Below the pieces are notes generated by a model, which ran no database searches, was not told where the DNA came from, and saw only the letters and a program-made list of their open reading frames with translations. Made by a program: the position numbers and the translations under genes. Below, piece by piece: positions 29,331 to 43,451 of a DNA stretch of 59,491 bases. Origin of the DNA: an uncultured Anaerolineaceae bacterium (GTDB lineage: Bacteria; Chloroflexota; Anaerolineae; Anaerolineales; E44-bin32); the NCBI GenBank assembly GCA_964549025.1, contig CAZJUE010000001.1, positions 1 through 59,491 of the forward strand, written 5' to 3'. Within the stretch, counting starts at the first letter, position 1. Every line of letters starts with the position of its first letter.

Positions 29331-30761
29331 TCAGCCAAAACTGCGCCGTAGCGCGGCCTGTGCGGCGTGGTAGCCGTTCATACCGTGCACCCCGCCGCCG
29401 GGCGGAGTAGCCGAGGAACACAGGTACAGATTGCGAGCTGGCGTAGTGTACGGATTCAGCCGCGGCGCCGGACGGGTGAACAGCTGTCGCAAGTCCTGAA
29501 CGCCGGCATTGATGTCACCCCCCACGTAGTTGGCGTTGTAGTTCTCCATTTGTGCCGCGGTGTAACTGTGGCGGGCCAGGATCCGGTCGCGAAAGCCGGG
29601 TGCGAAGCGCTCGATCTGGGCTTCCATGCGCTCGGCCATGTCCGTTGTGGAGCCGTTGGGCACGTGGCAATAGCCCCAGGCAGTGTGTTTGCCCTCTGGC
29701 GCCCGGCTGGGGTCGATCACGGTCTGCTGAGCAAAAATGATGAACGGTTGCTCCGGGTGCTTTCCTTCCCATACAGCCCGCTCGCCAGCCGCGATCTCAT
29801 CCAGCGTGCCGCCGATATGGAGAGACGCAGTTCGGGCGCACTCCTCAGCTGACCACGGAATCGGCCCGTCCAGGGCCCAGTCCACTTTGCAGACGCCCGG
29901 CCCGTAACGGTAGCCCTGCAGTTGCCGTCGGTATCTGGCCGGCAGCCGGTCGCCGGCAATTGCCAGCAGTTGCTTAGGCGCGGTATCGAACAGCACCGCC
30001 CGGGATTCCGGCAATTGATCAAGTGCCTCGATCCGGGTGCCGGTGACGATCTCACCCCCCAGGCCTCTCAGGTGTTCCCCCAGCGCCTCGGTGATGCGCT
30101 GCGATCCTCCAGCGGCGACCGGCCAGCCGACTGCGTGGCCCAGGATTCCCACTCCGAAGGCGAAGGCCGAGCTGGCCCAGCGCTCCAGCGGCATAATCGA
30201 GTGGGCGCCCAGTCCGCCCCACAGCGCCCGTCCCTCGGTTGTCTGCAGCCGGGCGTTGGCCAGACCCACCACCGAGCGCAGCGCCAGCAGCCCGAAGTAG
30301 GCCAGCAAGAACGGCCGCCGTGGCGGGAGTGGCAGCGGGCCTTGGATCTCGCGGAAAAGGTCCTGCCAATTGGCCACCAACCGTCCCATCAACTTTCGAT
30401 AGGCTGCTCGATCGGCGCCCAGTTGCGAGGCCGTGCGCTCCAGATCCGGCCACATCAGCACTGCTTTCCCTCCGTCCAACGGGTGGGCAAAGGAGGCCTC
30501 TGGATACACCCAGCGCAAGCCGTAACCGGCCAGCGGAAGCGAATTGAAAAAGGTCGAACTGGCGCCCAGCGGGTGGATGGCAGAGCAGACGTCGTGCTGG
30601 AAGCCGGGCAGGGTGAGCTCGGTGGTGCGGGTGCCGCCGCCGATGCTGTCGGCGGCCTCGTAGACGATTACCGATCGGCCGGCTTGCGCTAGCGTAATGG
30701 CCGCGGCCAGACCGTTCGGGCCGGACCCGATCACTGCGGCGTCATATTGGTTGCGTGGCAT
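29331..30761 (-). CDS. FAD-dependent oxidoreductase, phytoene desaturase (CrtI-like) family
   Basis: N-terminal dinucleotide fold DAAVIGSGPNGLAAAITLAQAGRSVIVYEAADSIGGG. 476 aa with C-terminal CSSATPPGGGVHGMNG. Confidence 0.8.
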   Translation of the reverse strand: MPRNQYDAAVIGSGPNGLAAAITLAQAGRSVIVYEAADSIGGGTRTTELTLPGFQHDVCSAIHPLGASSTFFNSLPLAGYGLRWVYPEASFAHPLDGGKAVLMWPDLERTASQLGADRAAYRKLMGRLVANWQDLFREIQGPLPLPPRRPFLLAYFGLLALRSVVGLANARLQTTEGRALWGGLGAHSIMPLERWASSAFAFGVGILGHAVGWPVAAGGSQRITEALGEHLRGLGGEIVTGTRIEALDQLPESRAVLFDTAPKQLLAIAGDRLPARYRRQLQGYRYGPGVCKVDWALDGPIPWSAEECARTASLHIGGTLDEIAAGERAVWEGKHPEQPFIIFAQQTVIDPSRAPEGKHTAWGYCHVPNGSTTDMAERMEAQIERFAPGFRDRILARHSYTAAQMENYNANYVGGDINAGVQDLRQLFTRPAPRLNPYTTPARNLYLCSSATPPGGGVHGMNGYHAAQAALRRSFG

Positions 30762-30794
30762 CGATGAGGCGGCGATCGCGGTAGGGATGCCTAG

Positions 30795-31538
30795 CTAATT
30801 CGCCCGGCCGAACAATCTCCCCACCAGGCGGACCGGCAGGTTGAGCGTGCTACGCAGGACCGCGTTGTACCAGATGTTCTTGGCCTCCGACCACTGCACC
30901 CGTGGATCCACCAGGATCTTGTGGCTCTGTACCTGGCCGGCGATTCCGAATTGATCAGCCAATTGGGTCAGTACGTGCGTCCACAGTCGCTCCTGCTGAG
31001 CGGAGCCCCCCAGCACCCGATAGTGGAACTCGCCAATCGGATCGCTGGCCCGCTCCAGAGATTGGATCTGGGCCACGGTGGCGGATTCATCGACGTAGGC
31101 GCTGAAGGTGTTCCAGCCCGATACCGGGTGACCCTCCGGGCACATCAGCGTGAAGGACTCGTCGTCGCTGTAGAGCACCATGACACCGGTTTCAACCGGG
31201 CTTGGAACCAGCGGAAGTGTGGCGTTGATCAACACGATTTCACCGGGCTCGACCCCAGCCACCGAAGTATAGAAGCGGCTGTCATCCGGCATTAGTTCCG
31301 GCAAATTCTGCTTCCACTGCGCAACCACTTCTTGCGGGGTGACCTCGGCGCCCGACAGCCGAACCCGGTAGGTTCGTTGCCAAAGCTGCCCGAAGCCCTG
31401 CAGTGGGCCGACGACCTGACGCCCCTCAACGTTGAAATTAACTGCGCCGGCTGGAACGTCTGTTACGTGCAGCTTGGAAACCGGCTCGGCCCAGTGGGCT
31501 TTATCTCGTGCCACGACATTGTCCAATTCGGCGCTCAT
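30795..31538 (-). CDS. Conserved protein of unknown function, paralog A (possibly DUF1990-like)
   Basis: 247 aa, aligns end to end with ORF 31611..32369. Shared blocks are GRQVVGPLQGFGQ.WQ.TYRVRLSG, GVMVLYSDDESFTLMCPEGHP and AKNIWYN. The domain assignment is from memory and uncertain. Confidence 0.6.
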   Translation of the reverse strand: MSAELDNVVARDKAHWAEPVSKLHVTDVPAGAVNFNVEGRQVVGPLQGFGQLWQRTYRVRLSGAEVTPQEVVAQWKQNLPELMPDDSRFYTSVAGVEPGEIVLINATLPLVPSPVETGVMVLYSDDESFTLMCPEGHPVSGWNTFSAYVDESATVAQIQSLERASDPIGEFHYRVLGGSAQQERLWTHVLTQLADQFGIAGQVQSHKILVDPRVQWSEAKNIWYNAVLRSTLNLPVRLVGRLFGRAN

Positions 31539-31610
31539 CAGTCGGTAATGCCTCCATGCTCGGCGGGTCGGCTGGGAAGAGCGCTACCCACTAGCCCGCG
31601 CATATGCAGG

Positions 31611-32369
31611 CTATCCCTCGCCCCGGCGAAATACTCGTTTGAGCAGCCGAACCGGGGTGTACAGCGTACTTCGAACCGCGGAGTTGTACCAGATGTTCTT
31701 CGCCTGCGACCACTGGAGCCGGCTGTCGACCAGCGTCTTGCGGGTCTCGACCTGCCCGGAGACGCCATAGTGTGTCGCCAGCTGAGTCAACACGTGGTTC
31801 CAAATCCGCTCCTGCTGCTTTGATCCTCCCATGAAACGGAAGCCAAATTCAAAGATCGGGTCGTTTGCCCGAGCCAGGCTCTGGATCTGAGCCACCGTCG
31901 TACCGTCTTCGTCGGCGGCGCTGAAAGTGTTCCAGCCTGCTTCAGGATGGCCTTCCGGACACATCAGCGTGAAAGACTCGTCGTCGCTGTAGAGCACCAT
32001 CACGCCGGTGGCGATCTCGCCGGGAATGCCGGGCAAAGTGGCATTGATCAGCACCAATTCCCCCGGAGCGACTCCCGCTACCGAGGGATAGAAACGCGAA
32101 TTCCCCGGCATCAGCGTGGGTAATCGTTGCTTCAGGAATTTCACGACTTCGCTCGGACTGACGTCCGATCCGCTAAGCCGCACCCGGTAGGTCTTTTGCC
32201 ACATCTGGCCGAAGCCTTGCAGCGGGCCGACCACTTGCCGGCCGTCGACGTTCAGGCTGACTGCCCCACTGGGCACATCACCGACCCTCAATTTGGAGAC
32301 CGGTCCGGCCCAATAGGGTGCATCCCGGGATTCGACAGGATTGCTATCTGCGCTCACTTTGTCCTCCAA
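31611..32369 (-). CDS. Conserved protein of unknown function, paralog B
   Basis: 252 aa tandem paralog of 30795..31538 (see shared blocks there). Confidence 0.6.
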   Translation of the reverse strand: MEDKVSADSNPVESRDAPYWAGPVSKLRVGDVPSGAVSLNVDGRQVVGPLQGFGQMWQKTYRVRLSGSDVSPSEVVKFLKQRLPTLMPGNSRFYPSVAGVAPGELVLINATLPGIPGEIATGVMVLYSDDESFTLMCPEGHPEAGWNTFSAADEDGTTVAQIQSLARANDPIFEFGFRFMGGSKQQERIWNHVLTQLATHYGVSGQVETRKTLVDSRLQWSQAKNIWYNSAVRSTLYTPVRLLKRVFRRGEG

Positions 32370-32410
32370 GTCTTTGGTCCTTCCTTCAGCTCCAGCGATT
32401 GCTTTTGGGG

Positions 32411-32761
32411 TCAGATTGCAGCCAGAGCATCCGCTTCGCTGTCGTAGATCTGTATGGCTTCGTTCAGGCGAGTGAGTTCGAAGATCTGCTTGTAGTGGTC
32501 GGTCAGGCCGTAGGCCAGCAGCTGCTGTTCCTGCCGGTTGGCCCGGATCAGCAAGGTGACCAGCAAACCAATGCCGCCACTGTTCATGTACTCCAACTCC
32601 TCGAAGTTCAACACGATCGCGCCAGCCCCGTCACCACTGGCTTTAGTGTAGGCGTCCATCAAGGCGTTCTCGGCGAACGATGTGATTTCGCCCTGGATGT
32701 CCACCACGCTGGCCGTTTCGGCGATCGGTCGCACCCGCATGGTTACCTTTGATTCGGTCAT
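32411..32761 (-). CDS. STAS-domain anti-sigma-factor antagonist-like protein (SpoIIAA/RsbV type)
   Basis: 116 aa with LNFEELEYMNSGGIGLLV containing the conserved phosphorylatable Ser, and a C-terminal FELTRL motif. Confidence 0.85.
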   Translation of the reverse strand: MTESKVTMRVRPIAETASVVDIQGEITSFAENALMDAYTKASGDGAGAIVLNFEELEYMNSGGIGLLVTLLIRANRQEQQLLAYGLTDHYKQIFELTRLNEAIQIYDSEADALAAI

Positions 32762-32840
32762 ACTCGGATCTCCTCCGTGATGGTTTTTCCTCGGCCGCGC
32801 AGGCTGCGCGGCTCCGACTAGTCAGCCCCGCTCTGTGCGG

Positions 32841-33194
32841 CTATCCGTGCTTGAGCGCCGCGGTTTCGTCGCTCACGATCTCCATGAAATCCGACAGCCG
32901 GGTGATTTCGAAGATCTCAGCGTAGTGTTCGGTCAGGCCGTAGGCCACCACCTTGCGCTGGTCCTTGCGCGCCTTTCCTAGGATGCTGACGATCAGCGCG
33001 ATCCCGGTGCTGTTGATATAGTCGACGTCGGAGAAGTTCAACACCAAGGTCTCCTGATTCAAGGCACCGGCCTGCTCGTAGGCGGCGCTCAACACCGCTT
33101 CCGCGAAGCCGTTGATATCGCCTGCCAGATCAACCACCGCAGTGCCGTTGGCCTGGCGTACGTCCGCTTCAGCTTGTCTCTCTGCCATGTCCAC
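32841..33194 (-). CDS. STAS-domain anti-sigma-factor antagonist-like protein (SpoIIAA/RsbV type)
   Basis: 117 aa with LNFSDVDYINSTGIALIV and FEITRL. The start overlaps the end of the upstream phosphatase-kinase gene. Confidence 0.85.
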   Translation of the reverse strand: MDMAERQAEADVRQANGTAVVDLAGDINGFAEAVLSAAYEQAGALNQETLVLNFSDVDYINSTGIALIVSILGKARKDQRKVVAYGLTEHYAEIFEITRLSDFMEIVSDETAALKHG

Positions 33195-34773
33195 CTCCCT
33201 GCAAATGGAGGATCAACTCCACCGTATGGTGCCGATCGTCAGTGGTCACTTTCAGATCGTCCACCATGTTCTTGATCAGAAACAGGCCCCAACCACGGGG
33301 ACTCTGCATGCCCTCCAATTTGGCCTCCAAATCGGGCGTCTCCGGATTTGGAATGTCTTTGCCGCCGCCGCGGTCGGTAATGAACACCGAAAGCCTATCG
33401 GGCGAGCTTTCCAGCCGAATGTTCACCGGCCGATCCTCCTGGTACCGGTTTCCGTGCTCCATGGCGTTCATGGTTGCTTCGCCGACCGCGGTCTTGAGTT
33501 TCTCCAGCCGCCCGCTGGGCAGGCCGAGCGGTTTCACCGCCTCGCTGATCTGCTCGATAGCCAGGCGTTCGTTCCCAACTTGGCTCGGCAGGCTGAATTC
33601 AAGCTGCACCTGTGGGCTCGTATTCGCGGCCGCCTTCCCCAGGTCCGGATTGGCGCCCGCGGCCGCGCATTCCAGCGCCAGCAAAGTGACATCGTCTTCA
33701 TGTAGCCAACCACGCCCAGTGAACTTCTCCAGCTCGGCAACCAGTGTGTCAATTAGATCCGGCCCACCGGGATGCTCTGCCATCAGCTGTTTGACTCGCG
33801 GAAAACCGAACATCTCGCTGCGCTCGTTGTGCGCCTCAGCTAACCCGTCGCTCTGAAACAGTACGGTGTCGCCGGGGGACAGCTCGATCTGGTTTTCCTC
33901 GTACTGCATATCCGGCATTAGACCCAGCGGCATTCCCGTAGCTTTGAGCTCGGTCACTCCTTCCCCCGATCGGCGGAAGGCTAGCCCGTGGCCGGCGTTG
34001 GCGAAACGCAGGGTGCGCTTGGCCGGGTCGAGCACTGAGTACAGGCAGGTGACGAACATATTGTCCGGGATGTCGGGGACCAGCTGATCGTTGACCCGCG
34101 CCAGCACCCTGCCGGGCTCCACCAGCCGCTCGGCGGCCGCCCGCAGCACACTGCGGGTGGTGGCCATCACCATGGCGGCGGGCACTCCCTTGTCGGTCAC
34201 GTCTGCCACGATCAGCACCAGTTTTCCATCCGGAAGCTTCAAGAAGTCGTAGAAATCGCCCCCGACCTCGCGGGCCGGGCGGTAATAAGCTGCCACTTGC
34301 CAGCCGGGAATCTGTGGCAGCTCGCGAGGTAGCAAGGTCTGCTGGATCAGGCGTGCGATCCGCAGCTCCTGTTCCAGCCGCTCGCGGCGGCGGGCCTCGT
34401 CTTTCTGCTGACGCACCAGTTGCGCCACTCGCAGCGCCGGGGCGGCCTGGATAGCCAGGCTGCTGAGCAGCGCCCGGTCGTCCACCGAGTACTCCTGTTC
34501 GCTCAGACGGGGTCCCAGGTTCAGCACACCGATCAGCTCGCCTTGCGCCACCAATGGAATTGTCAGCCGAACCCCGGCCTGCTTGAGCGAATCCAGCGCC
34601 GGTGACTCCAGCTCAAGACGGTCTACCTCCACAACCCCGCGCGCCGACTGAAGGTAGCCGATGAGCGGATCGTTCGGTGCGATCTGGATGCTTCCGTCGT
34701 CGACCTGTGGGTCGTCGGTCTCTTCGCCCGATCGGGCCAAAATCCTCCAGAGATTGCTTATCTGGGTGCTCAT
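33169..34773 (-). CDS. Fused GAF-like / PP2C (SpoIIE) phosphatase / HATPase_c (RsbW-like kinase) protein
   Basis: GAF-like LTIPLVAQGELIGVLNLGPR. PP2C motifs REVGGDFYDF, VADVTDKGVPAAM and SDGLAEA. C-terminal GEATMNAMEHGN...DRGGG...GWGLFLI are the kinase N and G boxes. ATG 34773 is preceded by GGAGGA. Confidence 0.85.
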   Translation of the reverse strand: MSTQISNLWRILARSGEETDDPQVDDGSIQIAPNDPLIGYLQSARGVVEVDRLELESPALDSLKQAGVRLTIPLVAQGELIGVLNLGPRLSEQEYSVDDRALLSSLAIQAAPALRVAQLVRQQKDEARRRERLEQELRIARLIQQTLLPRELPQIPGWQVAAYYRPAREVGGDFYDFLKLPDGKLVLIVADVTDKGVPAAMVMATTRSVLRAAAERLVEPGRVLARVNDQLVPDIPDNMFVTCLYSVLDPAKRTLRFANAGHGLAFRRSGEGVTELKATGMPLGLMPDMQYEENQIELSPGDTVLFQSDGLAEAHNERSEMFGFPRVKQLMAEHPGGPDLIDTLVAELEKFTGRGWLHEDDVTLLALECAAAGANPDLGKAAANTSPQVQLEFSLPSQVGNERLAIEQISEAVKPLGLPSGRLEKLKTAVGEATMNAMEHGNRYQEDRPVNIRLESSPDRLSVFITDRGGGKDIPNPETPDLEAKLEGMQSPRGWGLFLIKNMVDDLKVTTDDRHHTVELILHLQGGGHGRETS

Positions 34774-34945: not shown

Positions 34946-36388
34946 TCACTCGCTGCGTTCCCATTCCGCTGCGTGGAGCGCCCGCCACTCCGGGCTCAAT
35001 GGCACAACGCCAAGCTGTCGAACAATCTGTCGGGCCGCCAGCCCGACCACCGCGGTGAAAGTGGGGTAGGCCAGCTCCATCTCAGCCAATTGCTCGACCC
35101 ACATCCCGGCGGCCATACCGGCCGCCACCAGCTGCACGATTTCCAGCGCTTGTTCGCCAGCGGCGTGCGCACCCAGGATCCGATGGTTGTCCTGCGAAAT
35201 GATCAACTTGAAGATTCCCTCTGGACGCCCATCGATCACCGCCCGGTCCAGTTCGGAATACGGAACCACGGCGGTTAGATACTCGGCTCCGGCCTCAACT
35301 ACCGCCTGCTCGGTCAGTCCGACGCTGCCGTATTCAGGATCGGTAAACCCGCCGTGGGGCACGATCTGGTGTTCGAAGCGCAGTTCCGGACCGAGTACCG
35401 CGTTTTCGGCCGCAATGCGTGCCTCATAACCGGCGCTTTGCACCAGCATCATCCGTCCCGTGATGTCGCCGGCGGCGAATATGTGTGGGGCGCTGGTCTG
35501 CAAGTGTTGGTTGGCCGGCACGTAGCCGCGCTCCACCACCACCCCGGCCGCCTCCAGGTTCAACCCCTCGACGTTGCCGACCCAGCCGACCGCCAGCAGC
35601 ACCGCCTCGGCGCTCAGTTTTTGCTCTTCTTCCTTGCGGCTGTAGACCAGCTGCAAATCGTCCGTCTGGCCATTGATGCGCTGCACGCCGTCGATGCCGG
35701 TAATCACTTGGATGCCCCGCTCGGTGAAGCCGCGCTCAACTTCCTCGGAGATCGCCCGATCTTCTATCGCCAGCAAGCGCGGCGCCAGCTCGAGAATGGT
35801 CACCTCAGAGCCAAAAGCAGCGAAGTTGGAAGCCACCTGGCAGCCAGTGGCCGCCCCTCCGACGATGATCAGCGACCGCGGTTGGCGCTTTAGGGTCCAG
35901 GTGTCGCTGTGGGTCAGCGACAACTCCGAACCTGGGAAATCGATCCGACGCGGGTGGCCGCCTACACACAGGATGAACTTCTCACCGTGCAGTCGTTCAC
36001 CGCTGGCGAGCGCAACGGTGTGTGGACCGATGAAACTGGCCGAGCCGACCGCGGTCATGGTGTGCGCACCGGAATCTTCCAGGTGCTGGATCAGCTGCTT
36101 CTTTTCGTGAATGCCATACACTACCCGCCGGGTCCGCCGTAGCAGCTGCCCGAAATCGACCTGCGGCGGCGAACCCATCAGGCCGTACTCGACAAACTGC
36201 TCCGACTCGCGTTGCAGGCGGGCGGCTTTGGCCAGCACCCGGGTGGGAACGCAGCCGTCATTGGTGCAGGTGCCGCCCATGCGGTCGCGCTCGACCAGCG
36301 CCACTGAGGCGCCCAGCTCGCAGGCTCGCAGCGCGGCGGTGACTCCTGCGGGTCCCCCACCAAGCACCACCACATCGAATTCCTTCAC
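34946..36388 (-). CDS. Pyridine nucleotide-disulfide oxidoreductase (dihydrolipoyl dehydrogenase / mercuric reductase-like flavoprotein)
   Basis: VVVLGGGPAGV FAD fold, redox-active GGTCTNDGCVPT, a second dinucleotide fold IIVGGAATGCQ and a dimerisation-domain YPTFT motif. Confidence 0.85.
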   Translation of the reverse strand: MKEFDVVVLGGGPAGVTAALRACELGASVALVERDRMGGTCTNDGCVPTRVLAKAARLQRESEQFVEYGLMGSPPQVDFGQLLRRTRRVVYGIHEKKQLIQHLEDSGAHTMTAVGSASFIGPHTVALASGERLHGEKFILCVGGHPRRIDFPGSELSLTHSDTWTLKRQPRSLIIVGGAATGCQVASNFAAFGSEVTILELAPRLLAIEDRAISEEVERGFTERGIQVITGIDGVQRINGQTDDLQLVYSRKEEEQKLSAEAVLLAVGWVGNVEGLNLEAAGVVVERGYVPANQHLQTSAPHIFAAGDITGRMMLVQSAGYEARIAAENAVLGPELRFEHQIVPHGGFTDPEYGSVGLTEQAVVEAGAEYLTAVVPYSELDRAVIDGRPEGIFKLIISQDNHRILGAHAAGEQALEIVQLVAAGMAAGMWVEQLAEMELAYPTFTAVVGLAARQIVRQLGVVPLSPEWRALHAAEWERSE

Positions 36389-36403: not shown

Positions 36404-37642
36404 CTATTCATTGCCAGTTCGCCTTCTCACCCAGAGCGATAAGTGGGATGGCTGCATGGTTTCCTGAGCGGTCTCCAATAGCGCCGATTGCATGAGCTCC
36501 AGATCCACCTCCTCGCGCAGGCGAGCCGAAAGCTCGTCCAGCACTCCTTGTGCGTCATACTTGGCCCGATTGAATCGGCGATCGACCGCGTTTTGCACCC
36601 GAAGGCGTAATGGGTTGAACAAGGCAGCCACAACCAGCGTCGAAACCACGACTCCGAACTGGCTCTGGAACGGAAGCAGCTGTTGCGCCAGCGTTACGGA
36701 GCCAGCGAAAACCGCGGCCAAGAGACTGACGACGATTGCATACGCCGCGGTGCGAGAAATGATCCGGTCGATGTCGTAAAGCCGGTATTTAAGGATGGCG
36801 ATCCCGATGGTGGTGGGCAGGCCGACGGACACAAAGATCAATAGGACCGCGTCGAGCTGCCCAGCTGCGGTAAATCCAAATACTGCTCGGGCCACAGTCG
36901 TCAGGAGCAAGGGCGCGATACCTGCGGTGGCGACAAAGAGGACCCATTTGATCTGCTGTCGAGCGTCGCCGACCGATTGCCGGTAGCGCCTGAGCAAGCC
37001 AACCAGCGACAGCACAACTGCCAGAGCCAACAGCGGCTCCACCGCCGAGCCTACGGCGGTGTTGATACGCTCGACCGCGGGAAGGTGGAGCGGATTGCTT
37101 GCACTCAGCAGGCATTCGGTGACAACTCCCTCCGTCCACACGGGCTCAACGCACACGGTTGACGTTCCGAACGCAGGGAGCAAAAGATACAACAGAATCA
37201 GGACACCGTTCGCCCAAAGCACAATCCGCCATCGGCGACTGGGAAGCTGGCCGTCGGGGAACAGCAGCACGCCGGGTCCAAGGATCAGCAGAATCGACAG
37301 GGCATACAGCCACCCACCCGTCTGAATCAGAACGGCGGCCGCGGAATCGTTTCCCGCATGGGCCTGGAGTGGGGCCATCGTTTCAATCACGTTACCGATC
37401 GTCCCTGCTACCCCGAAAGCCAGGAAGATCCATCCCAGTGGATTCCACGGAAGTTTGATCGCAATCAGCCATCCCACCAACGGGAAGACCAAAAACGAAA
37501 GCGCGAACCCCACGTCAAATGCAGCTAGCGCCTGGGCGCCTTGCGATCCCAGGATGAAAACGAACGCCAGCCATGTCGTGACAACCGATACCAATAAAAG
37601 CGTGGCCAGCGCGCTCGTCCAGCGGCGGCGTGAGCTGCTCAT
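36404..37642 (-). CDS. Polytopic membrane protein, kinase-less sensor-like family (member 5)
   Basis: LLFPDGQLPSRRWR, ARQQIKWV, ILKYRLYDIDRIISRT and C-terminal FNPLRLRVQNAVDRRFNRAKYDA...ETMQPSHLSLWVRR. Strong SD AAGGAG. Confidence 0.7.
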   Translation of the reverse strand: MSSSRRRWTSALATLLLVSVVTTWLAFVFILGSQGAQALAAFDVGFALSFLVFPLVGWLIAIKLPWNPLGWIFLAFGVAGTIGNVIETMAPLQAHAGNDSAAAVLIQTGGWLYALSILLILGPGVLLFPDGQLPSRRWRIVLWANGVLILLYLLLPAFGTSTVCVEPVWTEGVVTECLLSASNPLHLPAVERINTAVGSAVEPLLALAVVLSLVGLLRRYRQSVGDARQQIKWVLFVATAGIAPLLLTTVARAVFGFTAAGQLDAVLLIFVSVGLPTTIGIAILKYRLYDIDRIISRTAAYAIVVSLLAAVFAGSVTLAQQLLPFQSQFGVVVSTLVVAALFNPLRLRVQNAVDRRFNRAKYDAQGVLDELSARLREEVDLELMQSALLETAQETMQPSHLSLWVRRRTGNE

Positions 37643-37775: not shown

Positions 37776-38525
37776 TCACTGCTCGACGATAAGGGTGCCG
37801 CGCATCCCGGCTTCAGTATGACCGGGGATCGCACAGACGAACTCGTACCTGCCGGGCTGCGCCTCGAAGGTAACTGACAACTCGGCTCCGACCGGCACCC
37901 GCAGATCGACGCCCAGTTCTTCGATGGTGAAGGTGTGCCAGAACAAATCGTCATTGGCCATGGTCACTGTGATTTCCCCGGCCGGGGCAGCGATCTCGGA
38001 ATCAGAAAATGCAACGTTCTTAGCCAGCAGCAGAACGTCCCCGGTTGCCGGCTCTGGGCGCGCGGCGCTGTTGCCCCAGATTATCAACCCCAGCAGCAAC
38101 CCAATCGAAGCGATCAGCCCCATCCGCGGAGCGCTGGTGGACAGTGAGTTTTCGGCCACGAGGAATCCAACAGCGGATACCAGGCCTAGCAACGCGACTG
38201 CCGCCAGTACTGCGGAGGTCATCGTCGACGACAGTTCGGAACCGACGCGGATATTGGTTATCGCCGCAGTCAGCATGAAGAACAGGGTGATGGCGGATGC
38301 GGCGGCCAGGCCGACGGCCCCCAGCCGCCCTCTGCGTACCCGAGTCATCCAGGTTGCCGCCGCGAATCCGACGGTCACCACCCCGCCCTCCAGGTCACCG
38401 AGTCCCAAAGAGACCAGGCCCATGGTGCCGGCGGCCAGGATGCCGGCGATGGTCACCAGTCGCCGCCAGGTCAGTCCCTGACCGACCGGCTCCGGATCGA
38501 CGTTACGCTGCGTGGGAATGCTCAT
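37776..38525 (-). CDS. Membrane-anchored cupredoxin (type-1 copper) protein
   Basis: About 5 N-terminal TM helices, then a cupredoxin domain with ligand pattern FWHTF...FVCAIPGHTEAGM (His...Cys-x3-His-x4-Met). Confidence 0.75.
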   Translation of the reverse strand: MSIPTQRNVDPEPVGQGLTWRRLVTIAGILAAGTMGLVSLGLGDLEGGVVTVGFAAATWMTRVRRGRLGAVGLAAASAITLFFMLTAAITNIRVGSELSSTMTSAVLAAVALLGLVSAVGFLVAENSLSTSAPRMGLIASIGLLLGLIIWGNSAARPEPATGDVLLLAKNVAFSDSEIAAPAGEITVTMANDDLFWHTFTIEELGVDLRVPVGAELSVTFEAQPGRYEFVCAIPGHTEAGMRGTLIVEQ

Positions 38526-39097
38526 GGTTGGGTACCTTTCGGTTCAAGCTCTCGAATCCAGAGCGAGAGGTGCGCCGGCTGCAGACCCAGAAAGAAGACC
38601 ACATCACTGGAGAAGATCAGCGAGGTTGCCCGCAGCAACCCACGCGCGGCCGGCAGGTCTGGTCGCCGGAGGTATGCGAATACCGCCATCGCCAGCATGT
38701 AGATCAGGAACAGGTAGCCAGGCCAGTTGGTCAGCAGGCTCGGAAGCAGATTGCGCGCTGCCAGCCGATGGGAGAGCTCGATGAACTCGGATTCGCGATC
38801 CAGCAAATAGGCAAGCTCGACCGGCGGCTGCGCCGTGCCTGGCATTGGGCGGGCCAGCAACGATTCAATTGATGGACCGTTCACTGCAACTATTCGATCA
38901 CGCCGCTGTAGCGGCGATCGCTGGTCTAGGATCTCACCGACGTACAAGCCCTGACCTTCCCGCGGTTCCCTCTGCAGGTCGAGCAGCACCCCATCTCCTG
39001 GCAGCAGTACTCTTGCACCGACGTAGATTGCGCTTGGAAGCACCAAGGCGACGCTCAATACGATCAGCCAGCGACTAGCTGAGGGGGCCGCGTTCAT
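38522..39097 (-). CDS. Short member or derivative of the sensor-like membrane family (member 4)
   Basis: N-terminal TM helix plus a PDZ-like stretch (YVGEILDQRSPLQRRDRIVAVNG). Retains the FAYLRRPD motif and the terminal LQPAHLSLWIRE tail. ATGA overlaps at both ends. Confidence 0.5.
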   Translation of the reverse strand: MNAAPSASRWLIVLSVALVLPSAIYVGARVLLPGDGVLLDLQREPREGQGLYVGEILDQRSPLQRRDRIVAVNGPSIESLLARPMPGTAQPPVELAYLLDRESEFIELSHRLAARNLLPSLLTNWPGYLFLIYMLAMAVFAYLRRPDLPAARGLLRATSLIFSSDVVFFLGLQPAHLSLWIRELEPKGTQP

Positions 39098-39972
39098 TGA
39101 CCGATAGCTGGATCACCAGCATTGCCCCGCAGCCAGAGCGATACAAGGGTGGGCTGCATAGTCTCCTGCCCTGTATTCAGCAGGGACGACTGCATTTCTG
39201 TCAGGTCCACTTCGTCTCGCACCGATTCGCCAAAGGCGCTCAAGGTCTGCGCCGCGTCGTAATCCGCGCGGAAGAATCTCCGATTCACCACCGTTTGTAT
39301 CCGCTGGCGCAGCGGATTGAAGAGCGCCGCGATCAGGCCAATGAGCAGAGCCGCCAGCTGCGCAACCGTCCCCGGAGAGGACTCCATGCTGGGCACCAGC
39401 TGCTCCAACAATGGATCAGCAAACGCGAGCAACGCCAAGGGAAATGCCAGGTAGCGGCCCCAGTCGGGGACGAAGCGGCCGTCTGGAAACAAGAAGATCA
39501 TCAGAATGATCAGCCCAGAGCCAATTGCGCTCAGCGTGTTGTAGAGCGGCGCCAGCGCCGGGGTCTGCTCCGACAAGATGGAGACGTTGTCCGAGATCCC
39601 GTTGATTCCAACCGCAATTAAGGCCATTGAAGCCAGCAATCCGATCCAGTCATCCGACCGGCGCAGATAGATCACTACCCCCAGGCCTGCCCAGGTGAGC
39701 AGCAGCAACTCGGAAGTGGGCAGGAAGCTGGCGTAGAAATCGTGAGAGACCCCCAGCTCTTCGAGCACCGCAAGTTCTTGAGCGGCGAGCTGGAAGGCAG
39801 TGCAATCGTCGCCGCTGCAGAGCTCCTGGTAGTTGGCGATGCTTACAGGACAGGCCGCGACAAAGACCGCGAAGTAGATCACTGCCAGGAGAATCCAAAG
39901 CAGGCGCGCTGACCCCAGCGCCAGCCCAGGCGGCCGCGCGCTCTCAGAGGGACTGGAGATCCAATTGCTCAA
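39094..39972 (-). CDS. Polytopic membrane protein, kinase-less sensor-like family (member 3, short)
   Basis: IYLRRSDDW, LFPDGRFVPDW and C-terminal FNPLRQRIQTVVNRRFFRADYDA...ETMQPTLVSLWLR. Lacks the QQTKW and YRLWDID middle section. TTG start overlaps the upstream stop. Confidence 0.62.
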   Translation of the reverse strand: MSNWISSPSESARPPGLALGSARLLWILLAVIYFAVFVAACPVSIANYQELCSGDDCTAFQLAAQELAVLEELGVSHDFYASFLPTSELLLLTWAGLGVVIYLRRSDDWIGLLASMALIAVGINGISDNVSILSEQTPALAPLYNTLSAIGSGLIILMIFLFPDGRFVPDWGRYLAFPLALLAFADPLLEQLVPSMESSPGTVAQLAALLIGLIAALFNPLRQRIQTVVNRRFFRADYDAAQTLSAFGESVRDEVDLTEMQSSLLNTGQETMQPTLVSLWLRGNAGDPAIGQ

Positions 39973-41273
39973 TGCAGCTGGTGTCCACTTCGCCGGTCCC
40001 TCAGCCAGATGGAAGTTTCGACCGGCTGGACGGTATCCTCAACCACGTCCAGCACTGCCTCGCTCACGTCTGCCAATCCGAAAGCCTGCTGTATCGTGCC
40101 TCCAAACTGCTTAAGGGCAAGATCGGCGTCGTATCGGGTCCGGTAGAAGCGCCGGTCGACCGCAGCCTGGATTCGTCGTCGAAGCGGATTGAAGAATGCG
40201 GCGACGATCAGGGTAGAGCTCACGATCGCCAGATTACTGGTACCCGCAGCTTCGGTTGGAACTATGTCTCCCAGCACGCCGCGAAAGATCTGTTCCAGCG
40301 CAAGGACGCTGATGGCGTAGATGCCGGCCAACAATACGGTCAGGGCTCCGTATCCGAGCGTCCGGCTGACCAGCCGATCGATGTCCCACAGGTGGTGGCG
40401 CGCCACCGAAACCCCGATGGCCAGCGGCATCAGCGCAAACGAGCCCAGGCTGACGGGTACGACCAGGAGTTCCCAGAACAGGCTGGGTATTCCGGGCGAG
40501 CGAAGCACCGGGAGGACGATGATTGGAAGCCACATCGCAGCCAGGGTGAGGGTCATGGCCGCGAACCCATAGACCACCCACTTGGTCTGCCGTCTCTGTG
40601 CCTGATCCCGGGTACCTCTCAGCCGTTGAAGCTGAGCCAGGGCTGCAGCGCCAAACCAGGCTATTAGCCCCAGAAACGGAATAAAGTCGTTGAGCTCCTT
40701 CAGGTCCGGTTTGCGGGTGGGTGGCGGCGCCACGATCCAGCTGAGCGCGAAGAGCAGCGAAACCACCGCAAAGCCCTTGGTCCAGCGCGGCACGAAACGA
40801 CCATCGGGAAACAGGCAGATCGAAATTACCACCGAGCTCCACGCCAACGCTCGGTGCACGAGCACCGGTATGTGCCAGGCTGGGTGCAGTTCGCGCAACG
40901 AGGTGGCGAAATCGCTCATGGACAATCCGAAGGCCAGCAGCGCAAACGAAACAAAGAGCACCATCCAGTCGTCCGATTTGCGTGCGAACAGCAATACACC
41001 GAAGGCCATCAGAGCCACCGCGAATACGACCTCAATCCCCATGATGTAGGAGGCCAGGAATCGCACCGAAAGCCCGAGCCGGTCGAGGGCTTCCGCATAA
41101 TCGGTCGCCAGGATCGAGCCGCTGTTTAGATCAGTCCAGCGCGCCGGCAGACCGATCAGAAAGATTGTCAGCGTCAGCGCGGCAGCAGCCAGCCAGCCGA
41201 GCCGCGCCCGGGTCAGTGCCGGTCGGCGAAGGTTGGTGATGGATGCTCGAGTGCGGGGGGCTTTATCGGCCAT
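39969..41273 (-). CDS. Polytopic membrane protein, kinase-less sensor-like family (member 2)
   Basis: LFARKSDDW, LFPDGRFVPRW, RRQTKWV, HHLWDIDRLVSRT and FNPLRRRIQAAVDRRFYRTRYDA...DTVQPVETSIWLR. Confidence 0.7.
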   Translation of the reverse strand: MADKAPRTRASITNLRRPALTRARLGWLAAAALTLTIFLIGLPARWTDLNSGSILATDYAEALDRLGLSVRFLASYIMGIEVVFAVALMAFGVLLFARKSDDWMVLFVSFALLAFGLSMSDFATSLRELHPAWHIPVLVHRALAWSSVVISICLFPDGRFVPRWTKGFAVVSLLFALSWIVAPPPTRKPDLKELNDFIPFLGLIAWFGAAALAQLQRLRGTRDQAQRRQTKWVVYGFAAMTLTLAAMWLPIIVLPVLRSPGIPSLFWELLVVPVSLGSFALMPLAIGVSVARHHLWDIDRLVSRTLGYGALTVLLAGIYAISVLALEQIFRGVLGDIVPTEAAGTSNLAIVSSTLIVAAFFNPLRRRIQAAVDRRFYRTRYDADLALKQFGGTIQQAFGLADVSEAVLDVVEDTVQPVETSIWLRDRRSGHQLH

Positions 41274-41283
41274 CGCGGTCCGC

Positions 41284-42587: not shown

Positions 42588-43451
42588 CTATTGCAGAGTC
42601 TGCAAGTACATCCAGACGGCAGCCAGCTCATCGTCGGTCATTTCGCCCACCAGCTTCCAGGGCATCAGGCGCGGGTCAAGATCCTCTCCTCGCGGAGTCT
42701 CCCCGGTGCGCAACGCGTGGACGAAATCGGACTGGCTCCAATCTGCCAGATCGCCGCTCTGGGTGAGGTCCAGGCCAGCCCCGGCAGTCGGACCACCACG
42801 CAAGTCGGCACCGTGGCAGATAGCGCAGGCTGTGGCGAGATACTCCCCGTACTCGACGGTAGCGCCGGGTTGTGGCGCGGTCGGGCGCTCGGCGGCGTGA
42901 TCGATGGTCTCAGCCGGGATCAACGAATCGTCGGTGAGCAAAGTGAGGTAAGTCAGCAATCCCAGATTCCTCTCTGGCAGCTGATTGGCGACCGGCGGCA
43001 AGCTCTTGAGGTAGGCGATGATCGCTCCGAGATCACTGTCGCTGATGTAGTAGTAGGAGTTGGAGGGCATCACGATCAGCGGCCGTTCCTCGGGATCCAG
43101 GCCATGTCGGATGGCACGGACCCAGTCCAGGTCGCTGAAAGAGGAACCAACCCCGCCAGCGCCGGAGGTGAGGTTCTTGGCCGAAACCTGTCCGCTAAGC
43201 GGATCATCCAGATATAGCTCACCCTGCAGTTGATCGCCGTGGCACAGCCGGCAGAAGAAGACCGAGCTGACCAGGTGCTGACCGCGCTCGATCGCGGCCT
43301 GGTCGGTTGGAACCGTGATCGGCTCGACCGAAACGGAATGGCGAAGCTCGAGCCGTTGCTCAACGTCGTTCCGGATCACCGTGGTGGCCAGCAGCAGCAG
43401 CGCGGCGGCCGCTACGGCAAGAATCAGCAAATAGCGAAGCAGCCTGCGCAC
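42588..43451 (-). CDS. Dihaem c-type cytochrome with N-terminal membrane anchor
   Basis: Two CxxCH motifs (CRLCHG, CAICHG), each followed by a candidate Met ligand (VMPS, LMPW) and an AYL/MYL..L tail. N-terminal hydrophobic anchor. Confidence 0.85.
   Translation of the reverse strand: MRRLLRYLLILAVAAAALLLLATTVIRNDVEQRLELRHSVSVEPITVPTDQAAIERGQHLVSSVFFCRLCHGDQLQGELYLDDPLSGQVSAKNLTSGAGGVGSSFSDLDWVRAIRHGLDPEERPLIVMPSNSYYYISDSDLGAIIAYLKSLPPVANQLPERNLGLLTYLTLLTDDSLIPAETIDHAAERPTAPQPGATVEYGEYLATACAICHGADLRGGPTAGAGLDLTQSGDLADWSQSDFVHALRTGETPRGEDLDPRLMPWKLVGEMTDDELAAVWMYLQTLQ

What the first reader, a model, noticed from the sequence alone, without database searches (positions are those of the whole stretch)
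29331..34773. Sigma-less partner-switching operon with a fused PP2C phosphatase and RsbW-like kinase, two STAS proteins and unknown outputs
One polypeptide (33169-34773) carries a GAF-like segment, a SpoIIE/PP2C phosphatase domain (GGDFYDF, DVTDKG, SDGL) and a C-terminal HATPase_c with N and G boxes (EATMNAMEHGN, DRGGG, GWGLFLI). It therefore holds both opposing activities of a partner-switching module. Two STAS genes follow, each retaining the phosphorylatable Ser (YINSTGIAL, YMNSGGIGL). The first overlaps the kinase gene by about 20-26 nt. No sigma factor gene is present. The genes that follow are two paralogous unknown proteins and a CrtI-like FAD oxidoreductase, with gaps of 80 nt or less. 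Established knowledge: RsbW/SpoIIAB-type kinases normally sequester a group-3 sigma factor, and sigma-independent outputs are known only in a few systems. Inference: the STAS proteins or the kinase domain may instead control the co-transcribed unknown proteins or the oxidoreductase.
Basis: partly seen in the sequence, partly recalled or inferred. Interest (0 to 1): 0.62.

Follow-up and report, generated by a model that had tools for sequence, protein, structure and literature searches.

The report
Protein switch wired to redox enzymes
One enzyme here both adds and removes phosphate on two small switch proteins, and in this conserved bacterial gene cassette those switch proteins appear to control an uncharacterised START-fold protein and its partner flavoenzymes rather than a sigma factor, as they do in the textbook systems.

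Summary
On the minus strand, 33169-34773 encodes a GAF-like/PP2C(SpoIIE)/HATPase_c_2 protein. It is followed by two STAS genes that keep the SpoIIAA-Ser58-equivalent serine, two paralogous 'unknown' genes and a CrtI-like flavoenzyme gene. No sigma factor gene was found anywhere in the 59-kb window.

Fusing the phosphatase to the kinase is not new (HsbR/CrsR, SypE, Rv1364c). The wiring is what looks new:
- **Conserved order.** The same gene order recurs in Chloroflexota and Rubrobacter genomes. Of 55 loci with enough upstream sequence, 48 carry the kinase-phosphatase; of 65 with enough downstream sequence, 54 carry the CrtI-like gene.
- **Identity of the unknowns.** They are divergent DUF1990 proteins with a predicted START/Bet v 1 fold.
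- **Gene fusions.** Elsewhere the STAS2-type domain is fused to this protein: STAS=DUF1990, Lpd-like reductase=STAS=DUF1990, and STAS=DUF1990=NDH-2-like. These fusion genes have no kinase nearby and mostly lack the serine.
- **Serine retention.** All 151 STAS genes in kinase-linked loci keep the serine.

Best reading: the GAF-regulated bifunctional enzyme sets the STAS phosphorylation state, and unphosphorylated STAS2 docks on the DUF1990 protein, which works with the CrtI-like and Lpd-like flavoenzymes at the membrane. A sigma factor encoded elsewhere cannot be excluded. This is a new variant of a known kind, and the module extends upstream of the reported coordinates.

The parts
33169..34773 (-). 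Bifunctional regulator, 534 aa: GAF-like sensor, coiled-coil linker, PP2C/SpoIIE phosphatase and RsbW-type Ser kinase (HATPase_c_2)
   Evidence: Pfam: SpoIIE 1.5e-50, HATPase_c_2 2.2e-22, GAF_3 3.3e-08. PDB sequence hits to SiaA (6k4e), Rv1364c (3ke6, spanning both the PP2C and the kinase domain), SpoIIE and RsbW. Shine-Dalgarno GGAGGA precedes ATG 34773.
34432..34695 (-). GAF-like segment (residues about 27-114)
   Evidence: Only the C-terminal two-thirds of the GAF profiles are matched, with scores just above the gathering thresholds.
33670..34233 (-). PP2C/SpoIIE domain carrying the metal-binding Asp motifs GGDFYD, DVTDKG, SDG and DDVT
   Evidence: aligned with SiaA and Rv1364c.
33211..33585 (-). 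HATPase_c_2 Ser-kinase/anti-sigma-type domain: N box EATMNAMEHGN, G1 DRGGG, G2 GWGLF
   Evidence: covers profile positions 3-126 of 127. NCBIfam hits to SpoIIAB and RsbW, below their cut-offs. RsbW 6m36 hit.
32841..33188 (-). STAS1, 115 aa, translationally coupled to the kinase gene by a 20-nt overlap. Ser60 codon at 33011-33009.
   Evidence: Found only in loci that also carry the kinase-phosphatase. Ser conserved in 72 of 72 kinase-linked copies.
32411..32761 (-). STAS2, 116 aa. Ser61 codon at 32581-32579. Orthologue of the STAS domain that is fused to DUF1990 elsewhere.
   Evidence: NSGG aligns with SpoIIAA DSSG. 42 of 43 fusion STAS domains score higher with the STAS2 profile than with the STAS1 profile. 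Ser conserved in 79 of 79 kinase-linked copies.
31611..32357 (-). UNK-A, 248 aa: divergent DUF1990 protein with a predicted START/Bet v 1-type helix-grip fold. Probable start is GTG 32357 after GGAGGA; the mechanical ORF starts at TTG 32369.
   Evidence: No Pfam or NCBIfam hit for the protein itself. 62% identical to a Rubrobacteraceae protein that carries PF09348. AF2 plus Foldseek: CoxG, Bet v 1, PYL and Aha1-C with probability 1.0.
30795..31538 (-). UNK-B, 247 aa: paralogue of UNK-A (68% identity), from a lineage-specific duplication
   Evidence: Both window copies cluster with the 'single' and 'second' copies found in other loci.
29331..30761 (-). CrtI-like FAD-dependent oxidoreductase, 476 aa, of the wider phytoene-desaturase superfamily but not a bona fide CrtI
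   Evidence: NAD_binding_8, DAO, Amino_oxidase. CrtO 115 bits against a cut-off of 1000, crtI_fam 55 bits against 238.. Lies directly downstream of DUF1990 in 54 of 65 loci and also follows the fusion genes.
34946..36388 (-). Lpd/MerA-like flavoprotein disulfide reductase, 480 aa. It has the CTNDGC redox disulfide, but Tyr and Ala replace the catalytic His and Glu.
   Evidence: The same YPTY variant is the N-terminal domain of the reductase=STAS=DUF1990 fusion proteins.
36404..37642 (-). Polytopic membrane protein, 412 aa, no Pfam family. First of four paralogues that probably belong to the wider module.
   Evidence: Members of this family flank the cassette in 47 of 82 genome loci.
37776..38525 (-). 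Membrane-anchored cupredoxin, 249 aa; probable associated gene
   Evidence: Cupredoxin_1 2.1e-11. DUF1990-TM-cupredoxin fusion proteins exist.
39094..42570 (-). Three further paralogues of the membrane protein: 39094-39972, 39969-41273 and 41284-42570
   Evidence: phmmer E 6e-23 to 7e-28 against the 412-aa protein.
42588..43451 (-). Dihaem cytochrome c, 287 aa; probable associated gene
   Evidence: Homologues lie next to the cassette in 9 of the related loci.

Best explanation
This is a conserved, self-contained cassette in which a partner-switching module regulates a protein complex rather than an adjacent sigma factor.

**Shown by sequence**
- One polypeptide carries an intact PP2C phosphatase and an intact RsbW-type Ser kinase behind a GAF-like sensor.
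- Two STAS proteins keep the phospho-acceptor serine.

**Inferred from comparative genomics**
- The substrate serine matters only when the kinase-phosphatase is present.
- STAS2 is the orthologue of a STAS domain that in other genomes is covalently fused to the downstream DUF1990 (START-fold) protein, so STAS2 and DUF1990 bind each other.
- Kinase-less fusions represent the permanently docked state, so the docked form is probably the working form. Phosphorylation by the kinase domain would release STAS2 (OFF). Dephosphorylation by the PP2C domain, controlled by the GAF-like domain through the helical linker as in other RsbU-type phosphatases, would restore docking (ON).
- STAS1 occurs only together with the kinase and is translationally coupled to it. 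It is probably the kinase's own antagonist or a competing substrate.

**Speculative**
- The DUF1990 protein is a membrane-proximal carrier or adaptor for a lipophilic redox molecule, such as a quinone or isoprenoid. It would serve the CrtI-like flavoenzyme and the Tyr-variant Lpd-like reductase, by analogy with CoxG handing menaquinone to a soluble dehydrogenase.
For: **Catalytic competence.** All PP2C and GHKL motifs are intact and the domains score well above Pfam thresholds. The STAS serine aligns with SpoIIAA Ser58.

**Synteny.** Across 82 genome loci from Anaerolineae, Caldilineae, Chloroflexia, Ktedonobacteria and Rubrobacter:
- 48 of 55 informative loci have PP2C+HATPase upstream.
- 52 of 55 have a STAS gene within 1.5 kb upstream.
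- 54 of 65 have the CrtI-like gene within 2.5 kb downstream.
- All cassette proteins are similarly conserved, at 51-66% identity, between the window and its Rubrobacteraceae/Actinomycetota (L041, L049, L072), Ktedonobacteraceae (L061), Caldilineales (L022) and Chloroflexia (L018) counterparts; the one exception is the single STAS of L061, which is only 37% identical to STAS1.

**Rosetta-stone fusions.** STAS=DUF1990, Lpd-like=STAS=DUF1990, STAS=DUF1990=NDH-2-like and DUF1990-TM-cupredoxin all exist. The fusion STAS is of the STAS2 type in 42 of 43 cases. The CrtI-like gene still follows the fusion genes.

**Serine and kinase go together.** The serine is kept in 151 of 151 STAS genes in kinase-linked loci. 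It is Ser or Thr in only 13 of 37 fused STAS domains. None of the 14 fusion loci with at least 3.5 kb of upstream sequence has a kinase or phosphatase hit anywhere in the fetched locus (up to 7 kb of flank on each side). Of six free STAS2 genes in kinase-less loci, four read N-N-K-G and two keep the serine.

**Structure prediction.** AF2 models a natural STAS=DUF1990 fusion as one rigid unit (pLDDT 93.7, pTM 0.92). The STAS half matches SpoIIAA and RsbV (target-normalised TM 0.84) and the other half matches Bet v 1/START/ARO-CYC folds.

**No local sigma factor.** None is found in the window, and 81 of the 82 genome loci have none within the fetched flanks (up to 7-8 kb).

**Precedents.** SypE/SypA and HsbR/HsbA show that a bifunctional kinase-phosphatase can make the STAS protein itself the effector. 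CoxG is a START-domain quinone shuttle.
Against: - There is no experimental or transcript evidence: no RNA runs hold this sequence.
- I could not inspect the model coordinates, so I do not know whether the phospho-serine lies in the STAS-DUF1990 interface.
- The high pTM of the fusion model may partly reflect the covalent linkage and a more diverse alignment.
- CrsR, HsbR and Rv1364c also lack an adjacent sigma gene yet act on sigma factors encoded elsewhere. The window covers only 59 kb of the genome.
- Two kinase-less loci with a free STAS2 (L066, L158) and about one-third of the fused STAS domains keep a Ser or Thr, so the correlation is not absolute.
- The conserved N-terminal extension of the DUF1990 protein is also present in Chloroflexia loci that have no STAS gene, so it is not a STAS-specific docking element.
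- The ligand and chemistry of the DUF1990 protein and the CrtI-like enzyme are unknown.
Confidence: 0.6

Rival explanations
1. This is a canonical partner switch whose sigma factor is encoded elsewhere. The HATPase domain sequesters a group-3 (SigB/SigF-like) or RpoS-like sigma factor, unphosphorylated STAS releases it, and the downstream DUF1990 and CrtI-like genes are simply members or neighbours of the regulon.
For: - CrsR and HsbR (REC-PP2C-kinase) bind RpoS although their loci encode no sigma factor.
- Rv1364c, the best two-domain PDB match to the fused enzyme, belongs to the SigF network.
- The kinase domain scores against the SpoIIAB and RsbW models, though below their cut-offs.
- Only 59 kb of the genome is visible.
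Against: - 81 of the 82 genome loci have no sigma gene within the fetched flanks (up to 7-8 kb).
- This reading does not explain why the STAS2-type domain is repeatedly fused to DUF1990.
- It does not explain why kinase-less loci keep STAS+DUF1990+CrtI while losing the serine.
- It is not mutually exclusive with the main explanation.
Confidence: 0.2
2. The DUF1990 (START-fold) protein is the input rather than the output. It binds a small hydrophobic ligand or senses quinone redox state, then regulates the PP2C or kinase through the STAS proteins. This would be analogous to plant PYR/PYL START receptors inhibiting PP2Cs, or to RsbR-type sensors.
For: - START/Bet v 1 fold, with PYL-PP2C complexes among the structural matches.
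- Fusions to a membrane-anchored cupredoxin place the domain at the cytoplasmic face of a possible transmembrane sensor.
- Sensor-like membrane paralogues flank the cassette.
Against: - DUF1990, STAS and the CrtI-like gene persist together in many loci that have no PP2C or kinase at all, so the protein has a role independent of the phosphatase.
- The GAF-like domain already supplies an input to the PP2C.
- The PYL matches reflect the general fold only (11-16% identity, target-normalised TM about 0.5-0.6).
Confidence: 0.12
3. There is no functional link. The signalling genes and the DUF1990 and CrtI-like genes are neighbours by descent in related genomes, and the downstream genes are transcribed independently.
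For: - No transcript data are available.
- The promoter and terminator scans are uninformative.
- The 172-nt and 79-nt gaps could hold promoters.
Against: - The order is kept across two phyla while the flanks differ.
- There are several independent domain fusions.
- Serine loss tracks kinase loss.
Confidence: 0.03

Closest known systems
SypE/SypA of Vibrio fischeri
   Same: One polypeptide holds both an RsbW-type Ser kinase and a PP2C phosphatase and sets the phosphorylation of a single-domain STAS protein. The unphosphorylated STAS protein is itself the downstream effector, and no sigma factor is involved (PMC10120452).
   Different: - SypE has the order kinase-REC-PP2C; here it is GAF-like-PP2C-kinase.
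- SypE has one STAS partner; here there are two.
- SypA's target is still unknown. Here gene fusions nominate a specific partner, the DUF1990 protein.
HsbR/HsbA (Pseudomonas) and CrsR/CrsA (Shewanella)
   Same: The same PP2C-then-kinase/anti-sigma order on one protein with an adjacent STAS gene. HsbA has non-sigma partners, FlgM and the diguanylate cyclase HsbD, depending on its phosphorylation state (PMC6482189).
   Different: - Their input is a receiver domain fed by a phosphorelay, not a GAF-like domain.
- Their kinase domain also binds RpoS.
- They are found in Proteobacteria.
- They have no DUF1990, CrtI-like or Lpd-like genes alongside.
Rv1364c of Mycobacterium tuberculosis
   Same: It is the best PDB sequence match that spans both the PP2C and the kinase domain (3ke6, E 6.6e-15). 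It is a multidomain sensor-PP2C-anti-sigma kinase protein (PMC12143880).
   Different: - Rv1364c has a PAS sensor.
- Its STAS domain is fused at its own C-terminus.
- It is placed in the SigF regulatory network.
RsbU/RsbV/RsbW-SigB and SpoIIE/SpoIIAA/SpoIIAB-SigF of Bacillus
   Same: The same three biochemical parts: a PPM phosphatase, a STAS protein with a phospho-serine, and a GHKL Ser kinase. The STAS fold matches SpoIIAA and RsbV at target-normalised TM 0.84.
   Different: - In Bacillus the phosphatase and kinase are separate proteins and the sigma gene is co-transcribed.
- Here they are fused, and no sigma gene is found in the locus or in 81 of 82 genome loci.
CoxG (START-domain menaquinone shuttle of Mo-CO dehydrogenase)
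   Same: It is the top structural match class for the DUF1990 protein (2ns9, 8uds). It is a START fold held at the membrane that hands a lipophilic electron carrier to a soluble redox enzyme (PMC13525633). In other genomes the DUF1990 protein is likewise followed by a TM helix and is fused to, or sits next to, flavoenzymes.
   Different: - There is no detectable sequence homology.
- Ligand binding by the DUF1990 protein is untested.
- CoxG is not known to be regulated by a STAS protein.
DUF1990 (PF09348), including the plant chloroplast envelope protein Oep23
   Same: Rubrobacter orthologues that are 62% identical to UNK-A carry PF09348. 18 of 43 fusion proteins hit it at E<=0.01.
   Different: - The window copies fall below Pfam detection.
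- The window proteins have a conserved N-terminal extension of about 45 residues and C-terminal helices beyond the 157-residue Pfam domain.
- Oep23 was described as an ion channel (PMC4331141), which gives no obvious guide to function here.

Membership tests
Partner-switching system (RsbUVW / SpoIIE-AA-AB type) | STAS anti-anti-sigma protein with a phosphorylatable Ser at the start of helix 2 (SpoIIAA Ser58 position) | tested here: met
   Pfam STAS 3.9e-11 and 5.5e-13; TIGR00377 above its cut-off for both. NSGG aligns with DSSG of SpoIIAA. The serine is invariant in 151 of 151 orthologues in kinase-linked loci.
Partner-switching system (RsbUVW / SpoIIE-AA-AB type) | GHKL Ser kinase/anti-sigma domain with N, G1 and G2 boxes | tested here: met
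   HATPase_c_2 at 79.9 bits against a gathering score of 27.4, with full-length coverage. Motifs EATMNAMEHGN, DRGGG and GWGLF are present. Kinase activity itself was not tested.
Partner-switching system (RsbUVW / SpoIIE-AA-AB type) | PPM/PP2C phosphatase with metal-binding aspartates | tested here: met
   SpoIIE at 172 bits against a gathering score of 25. GGDFYD, DVTDKG, SDG and DDVT align with SiaA and Rv1364c.
Partner-switching system (RsbUVW / SpoIIE-AA-AB type) | Cognate alternative sigma factor encoded in or next to the operon | tested here: not met
   No sigma-like ORF in the 59-kb window. One ECF-type hit in 82 related genome loci, and none in the 80 metagenome loci, where the same SigF and RpoE queries were run.
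Partner-switching system (RsbUVW / SpoIIE-AA-AB type) | Kinase domain binds and inhibits a sigma factor | not testable with these tools
   This needs the whole genome and binding assays.
HsbR/CrsR-type bifunctional regulators | Domain order receiver - PP2C - kinase/anti-sigma, with an adjacent STAS gene | tested here: not met
   The PP2C-kinase order and the adjacent STAS gene are present, but the N-terminal domain is GAF-like and there is no Response_reg hit. Architecture as described in PMC6482189.
Rv1364c-type multidomain regulators | PAS - PP2C - kinase - STAS on a single polypeptide | tested here: not met
   PP2C plus kinase align to 3ke6. There is no PAS domain, and the STAS proteins are encoded by separate genes.
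DUF1990 (PF09348) | Match to the Pfam model at or above its gathering score | tested here: inconclusive
   The window copies give no hit. Orthologues at 62% identity carry PF09348. 18 of 43 fusion homologues hit at E<=0.01, best 4.7e-06. Membership rests on transitive homology.
START / SRPBCC (Bet v 1-like) superfamily | Helix-grip fold: an antiparallel beta-sheet wrapped around a long C-terminal helix | tested here: met
   Foldseek matches the AF2 models to CoxG, Bet v 1, PR-10, PYL, Aha1-C and ARO/CYC with probability 1.0 and target-normalised TM 0.5-0.64. These are predictions, not solved structures.
START / SRPBCC (Bet v 1-like) superfamily | Hydrophobic ligand-binding cavity with a bound ligand | not testable with these tools
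CrtI / phytoene desaturase family | Score above the TIGR02734 (crtI_fam) or a CrtI/CrtO/CrtD equivalog cut-off | tested here: not met
   crtI_fam 55 bits against 238; CrtO 115 bits against 1000. Only the FAD-binding N-terminus and a C-terminal segment resemble CrtI 4dgk.
Dihydrolipoyl dehydrogenase / MerA (class I flavoprotein disulfide reductases) | Pyr_redox_2 plus dimerisation domain, CxxxxC disulfide, His-Glu dyad (Lpd) or C-terminal Cys pair (MerA), and a score above the equivalog cut-off | tested here: not met
   The fold domains and CTNDGC are present. Lpd scores 328.7 against 408.8 and MerA 324.9 against 454.45. The His-Glu dyad is replaced by Tyr and Ala, and there is no C-terminal Cys pair. 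It belongs to the superfamily but to neither equivalog.

The most novel reading that the evidence does not exclude
This would be the first partner-switching system whose output is the reversible assembly of a metabolic or redox complex. Phosphorylation of STAS2 would gate a DUF1990 START-fold carrier of a quinone or isoprenoid lipid. That carrier would couple a CrtI-like flavoenzyme and an Lpd-like reductase to the membrane, where it is linked to cupredoxin, cytochrome c and stand-alone sensor-like membrane proteins. This would also give DUF1990 its first bacterial function.
Probability: 0.3. Interest if true: 0.8.

Novelty: new variant of a known kind. Interest (0 to 1): 0.64.

Why it matters
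Partner switching is the textbook way bacteria control alternative sigma factors. In the few sigma-independent cases, such as SypA, RbaV and HmpV, the target of the STAS protein is mostly still unknown.

Here natural gene fusions name the target: a widespread, strongly conserved DUF1990/START-fold protein, together with two flavoenzymes. The family has about 1,070 representative clusters at 50% identity. This gives three things:
- A directly testable case of a phospho-STAS protein regulating a protein complex post-translationally.
- A first functional handle on DUF1990, on a family of CrtI-like oxidoreductases, and on a Tyr-variant Lpd/MerA-like reductase.
- A natural experiment, regulated versus permanently fused architectures, that predicts which phosphorylation state is active.

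The organisms involved are uncultured Anaerolineae from sediments and Rubrobacter, where signalling is poorly studied.

Tried and rejected
- **Transcript evidence.** Only sediment and rhizosphere DNA metagenomes hold the sequence, and no RNA runs do.
- **Promoter and terminator scan of 29000-45200.** One promoter-like site, and terminator-like sites at the chance rate, all inside genes. Uninformative for a Chloroflexota genome.
- **Sequence search of the DUF1990-like profile against the PDB.** No homologue found. Only fold-level matches were obtained.
- **Metagenome scan with the 43-sequence fusion alignment.** Repeated with 8 closer sequences.
- **412-aa membrane protein.** No Pfam, NCBIfam or PDB match. 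One of 26 homologues touches HisKA_7TM. Its sensor-like nature rests partly on my recollection of similar N-terminal regions in actinobacterial histidine kinases and is unproven.
- **N-terminal extension as a docking element.** I considered that the conserved N-terminal extension of the DUF1990 protein is the STAS docking element, because it is disordered in the stand-alone model and confident in the fusion model. I rejected this as a specific claim because the extension is equally conserved in STAS-less Chloroflexia loci.
- **Phage-defence role.** No meaningful PADLOC hit.
- **Identity of the upstream reductase.** MerA, RclA and Har identities were considered. All equivalog cut-offs are missed and there is no C-terminal Cys pair.
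- **Inspection of the STAS-DUF1990 interface.** Not possible, because the AF2 model coordinates are not exposed.

Full report
**Observation**

The first gene most likely starts at ATG 34773, which follows a GGAGGA Shine-Dalgarno sequence; the longer 570-aa ORF has none. Its 534-aa product has these features:
- A partial GAF domain: GAF_3, GAF and GAF_2 score just above their gathering thresholds, and only the C-terminal two-thirds of the profiles match.
- A helical linker.
- A full SpoIIE/PP2C domain (1.5e-50).
- A full HATPase_c_2 domain (2.2e-22).

The PP2C metal-binding motifs align with SiaA and Rv1364c, and the kinase region aligns with Rv1364c and RsbW.

STAS1 most likely starts at ATG 33188 after GGGAGG and overlaps the kinase stop codon by 20 nt. 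STAS2 starts 79 nt after STAS1 ends. The two are 42% identical. Both exceed the STAS and TIGR00377 thresholds. The serine in N-S-[TG]-G aligns with SpoIIAA Ser58.

The two 'unknown' proteins are 68% identical. The last gene encodes a flavoenzyme that resembles CrtI only at its FAD-binding N-terminus and in a C-terminal segment, and it falls far below every CrtI, CrtO and CrtD cut-off. Intergenic gaps are 79, 53, 72 and 33 nt.

No second PP2C, HATPase_c_2 or STAS gene exists in the window. No sigma-like ORF was found:
One ECF hit in a related locus served as a working positive control.
- Pfam scans of 56 ORF translations (all candidate genes of 200 aa or more, plus the two STAS genes) found no sigma-70 domain.

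**Surroundings**

The same strand continues upstream with:
- An Lpd/MerA-like flavoprotein disulfide reductase (34946-36388).
- A 412-aa polytopic membrane protein with no Pfam family (36404-37642).
- A membrane-anchored cupredoxin (37776-38525).
- Three more paralogues of the membrane protein (39094-42570).
- A dihaem cytochrome c (42588-43451).

The rest of the window is ordinary chromosomal housekeeping: ClpB/C, RecN, NAD kinase, MutY, FtsH, ThrB/ThrC and ABC transporters. The closest relatives of the cassette are uncultured Anaerolineaceae. The sequence itself occurs only in sediment and rhizosphere metagenomes.

**Conservation**

The 'unknown' protein has thousands of homologues: 2,750 in the word-indexed search and 1,069 clusters at 50% identity.

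I fetched 80 genome loci around homologues and two more by exact look-up. I then mapped the window's proteins onto their six-frame ORFs.
- The order GAF-PP2C-kinase, STAS1, STAS2, unknown (one or two copies), CrtI-like recurs in Anaerolineae, Caldilineae, Chloroflexia, Ktedonobacteria and Rubrobacter (Actinomycetota), with differing flanks.
- Of 55 loci with enough upstream sequence, 48 have the kinase-phosphatase and 52 have a STAS gene within 1.5 kb.
- Of 65 loci with enough downstream sequence, 54 have the CrtI-like gene within 2.5 kb.
- Paralogues of the membrane protein flank the cassette in 47 of 82 loci.
- All cassette proteins are about equally conserved between the phyla, at 51-66% identity, apart from a lower STAS1 match (37%) in the single-STAS Ktedonobacteraceae locus L061. 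This fits a unit that is inherited or transferred whole.
- Only one of the 82 loci has any sigma-like gene in its flanks.

**What the unknown protein is**

The window copies hit nothing in Pfam or NCBIfam, and their profile finds no PDB sequence. Three lines of evidence identify them:
- Rubrobacter orthologues 62% identical to UNK-A carry PF09348 (DUF1990) and are named accordingly.
- 18 of 43 more distant homologues hit DUF1990 at E<=0.01.
- AF2 models have a helix-grip fold that Foldseek matches with probability 1.0 to CoxG, Bet v 1/PR-10, PYL receptors, Aha1-C and aromatase/cyclases. The stand-alone model has pLDDT 70 and the natural fusion model has pLDDT 93.7.

It is therefore a divergent DUF1990 member of the START/SRPBCC superfamily, with a conserved N-terminal extension and extra C-terminal helices.

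A 2026 review of bacterial START proteins mentions neither STAS, PP2C nor DUF1990. No paper in the library combines 'STAS domain' with 'SRPBCC'.

**Gene fusions**

In the all-against-all search, many homologues are 340-390 aa or 800-900 aa long. Pfam shows these architectures:
- STAS=DUF1990.
- Lpd-like reductase=STAS=DUF1990.
- STAS=DUF1990=NDH-2-like flavoenzyme.
- DUF1990 followed by one to several TM helices and a cupredoxin.

The reductase domain in the fusions has the same unusual YPT[YF] motif as the window's upstream gene. Tyr replaces the catalytic His of Lpd, and the Glu is also lost. This ties that upstream gene to the module.

The STAS domain of the fusions scores higher with the STAS2 profile than with the STAS1 profile in 42 of 43 cases. 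AF2 models one such fusion as a single rigid body (pTM 0.92).

**Two architectures and the serine**

Among 80 metagenome loci the cassette comes in two forms.
- **Regulated form (as in the window).** It has free STAS1 and STAS2 and the kinase-phosphatase.
- **Minimal form.** A fused [reductase=]STAS=DUF1990 gene is followed directly by the CrtI-like gene. None of the 14 such loci with at least 3.5 kb of upstream sequence has a PP2C or HATPase hit anywhere in the fetched locus (up to 7 kb of flank on each side).

The phospho-acceptor serine is present in all 151 STAS genes of kinase-linked loci (59+56 genome, 20+16 metagenome). It is Ser or Thr in only 13 of 37 fused STAS domains. Of six free STAS2 genes in kinase-less loci, four read N-N-K-G and two keep the serine. 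So the serine is under selection only when the bifunctional enzyme is present, while the STAS-DUF1990-CrtI association is the older core.

**Mechanism**

*Shown:* intact catalytic motifs for both activities on one polypeptide, and a canonical acceptor serine on both STAS proteins.

*Inferred:*
- The enzyme phosphorylates and dephosphorylates these serines.
- STAS2 binds the DUF1990 protein.
- Because the kinase-less version is permanently joined, the joined state is the working one. The kinase is therefore the OFF switch and the PP2C the ON switch. The GAF-like domain would control the PP2C through the helical linker, as proposed for RsbU-type phosphatases (PMC12143880).
- STAS1 occurs only with the kinase and is translationally coupled to it, so it probably acts as the kinase's antagonist or a competing substrate.

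*Speculative:* the DUF1990 protein handles a lipophilic redox molecule for the CrtI-like and Lpd-like enzymes at the membrane. Three points support this. It has a START fold. It is fused to, or sits next to, three different flavoenzymes and a membrane-anchored cupredoxin. CoxG provides a precedent.

**Rivals**

- **A sigma factor encoded elsewhere.** This remains possible, because CrsR and HsbR bind RpoS without a local sigma gene. It does not explain the fusions or the serine pattern, and it could coexist with the main explanation.
- **The START-fold protein as input sensor (PYL-PP2C-like).** This is weakened by its persistence without any PP2C.
- **Chance neighbourhood.** This is very unlikely given the synteny across two phyla and the repeated fusions.

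**Comparison with known systems and novelty**

The closest working analogues are SypE/SypA, where the STAS protein is the effector and its target is unknown, and HsbR/HsbA. The closest sequence and structure relative of the enzyme is Rv1364c.

The locus fails the 'adjacent sigma factor' criterion of canonical partner switching and the N-terminal domain criteria of the HsbR and Rv1364c types. It meets the three biochemical criteria.

It is a new variant of a known kind. The fused enzyme is not novel. The proposed output, the conserved cassette and the fusion evidence appear to be undescribed.

**Limits**

There are no transcript, biochemical or coordinate-level structural data. Locus sets were limited to the 80 best matches per scan. 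Domain mapping in related loci used single-sequence phmmer and could miss very divergent genes.

Noticed in passing
window 34946-36388 (-): This Lpd/MerA-like flavoprotein disulfide reductase keeps the CTNDGC redox disulfide. Tyr and Ala replace the catalytic His-Glu dyad (AYPTFTA against HPTxxE), as in MerA, but it lacks MerA's C-terminal Cys pair. The same variant forms the N-terminal domain of the reductase=STAS=DUF1990 fusion proteins.
   Followed up: partly
window 36404-37642, 39094-39972, 39969-41273, 41284-42570 (-): Four paralogous polytopic membrane proteins with no Pfam, NCBIfam or PDB match belong to a very large family (at least 5,881 homologues). They share a conserved LFPDGRLPSRRWR-type loop and a C-terminal cytoplasmic helix (DRRFxRxKYDA...ETMQPxHxSLW). 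Tandem copies flank the cassette in 47 of 82 genome loci in both phyla. They may be stand-alone sensor modules.
   Followed up: partly
window 37776-38525 (-) and 42588-43451 (-): A membrane-anchored cupredoxin and a dihaem cytochrome c sit in the same strand block. Homologues recur near the cassette elsewhere (for example L002 and L027). DUF1990-TM-cupredoxin fusion proteins exist (P0150, P0162).
   Followed up: partly
window 45057-47921 (+): A 954-aa BTAD-AAA_16-TPR (SARP/STAND-type) regulator is transcribed divergently from the top of the minus-strand block. It could be a transcriptional regulator of the block.
   Followed up: no
L058, L065, L067, L074, L055 (Roseiflexaceae/Chloroflexaceae and others): In these loci the DUF1990 gene sits with the membrane-protein paralogues and a cytochrome c but without any STAS, kinase or (mostly) CrtI-like gene. 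This looks like a third architecture, linking DUF1990 to membrane electron-transfer proteins.
   Followed up: partly
L021-L077 two-copy loci; window 30795-32357: Most two-copy loci, especially in Rubrobacter, carry an older and more divergent 'first' DUF1990 paralogue plus a core-type 'second' copy. The window's two copies are both core type and 68% identical, so they come from a separate, more recent duplication.
   Followed up: yes
window 28469-29200 (+): A CcdA/DsbD-type thiol-disulfide transporter gene lies directly next to the CrtI-like gene. The related locus L001 additionally has a thioredoxin-like Redoxin gene there, which is absent from the window. ROK and two ABC exporter genes follow in both.
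   Followed up: no
window 28310-29206 (-), 27276-28313 (+), 33242-33856 (+) and similar: These are long antisense or overlapping ORFs of the kind typical of high-GC DNA. They overlap well-supported genes (CcdA, ROK, the kinase gene), were not scanned against Pfam, and I take them to be spurious.
   Followed up: no
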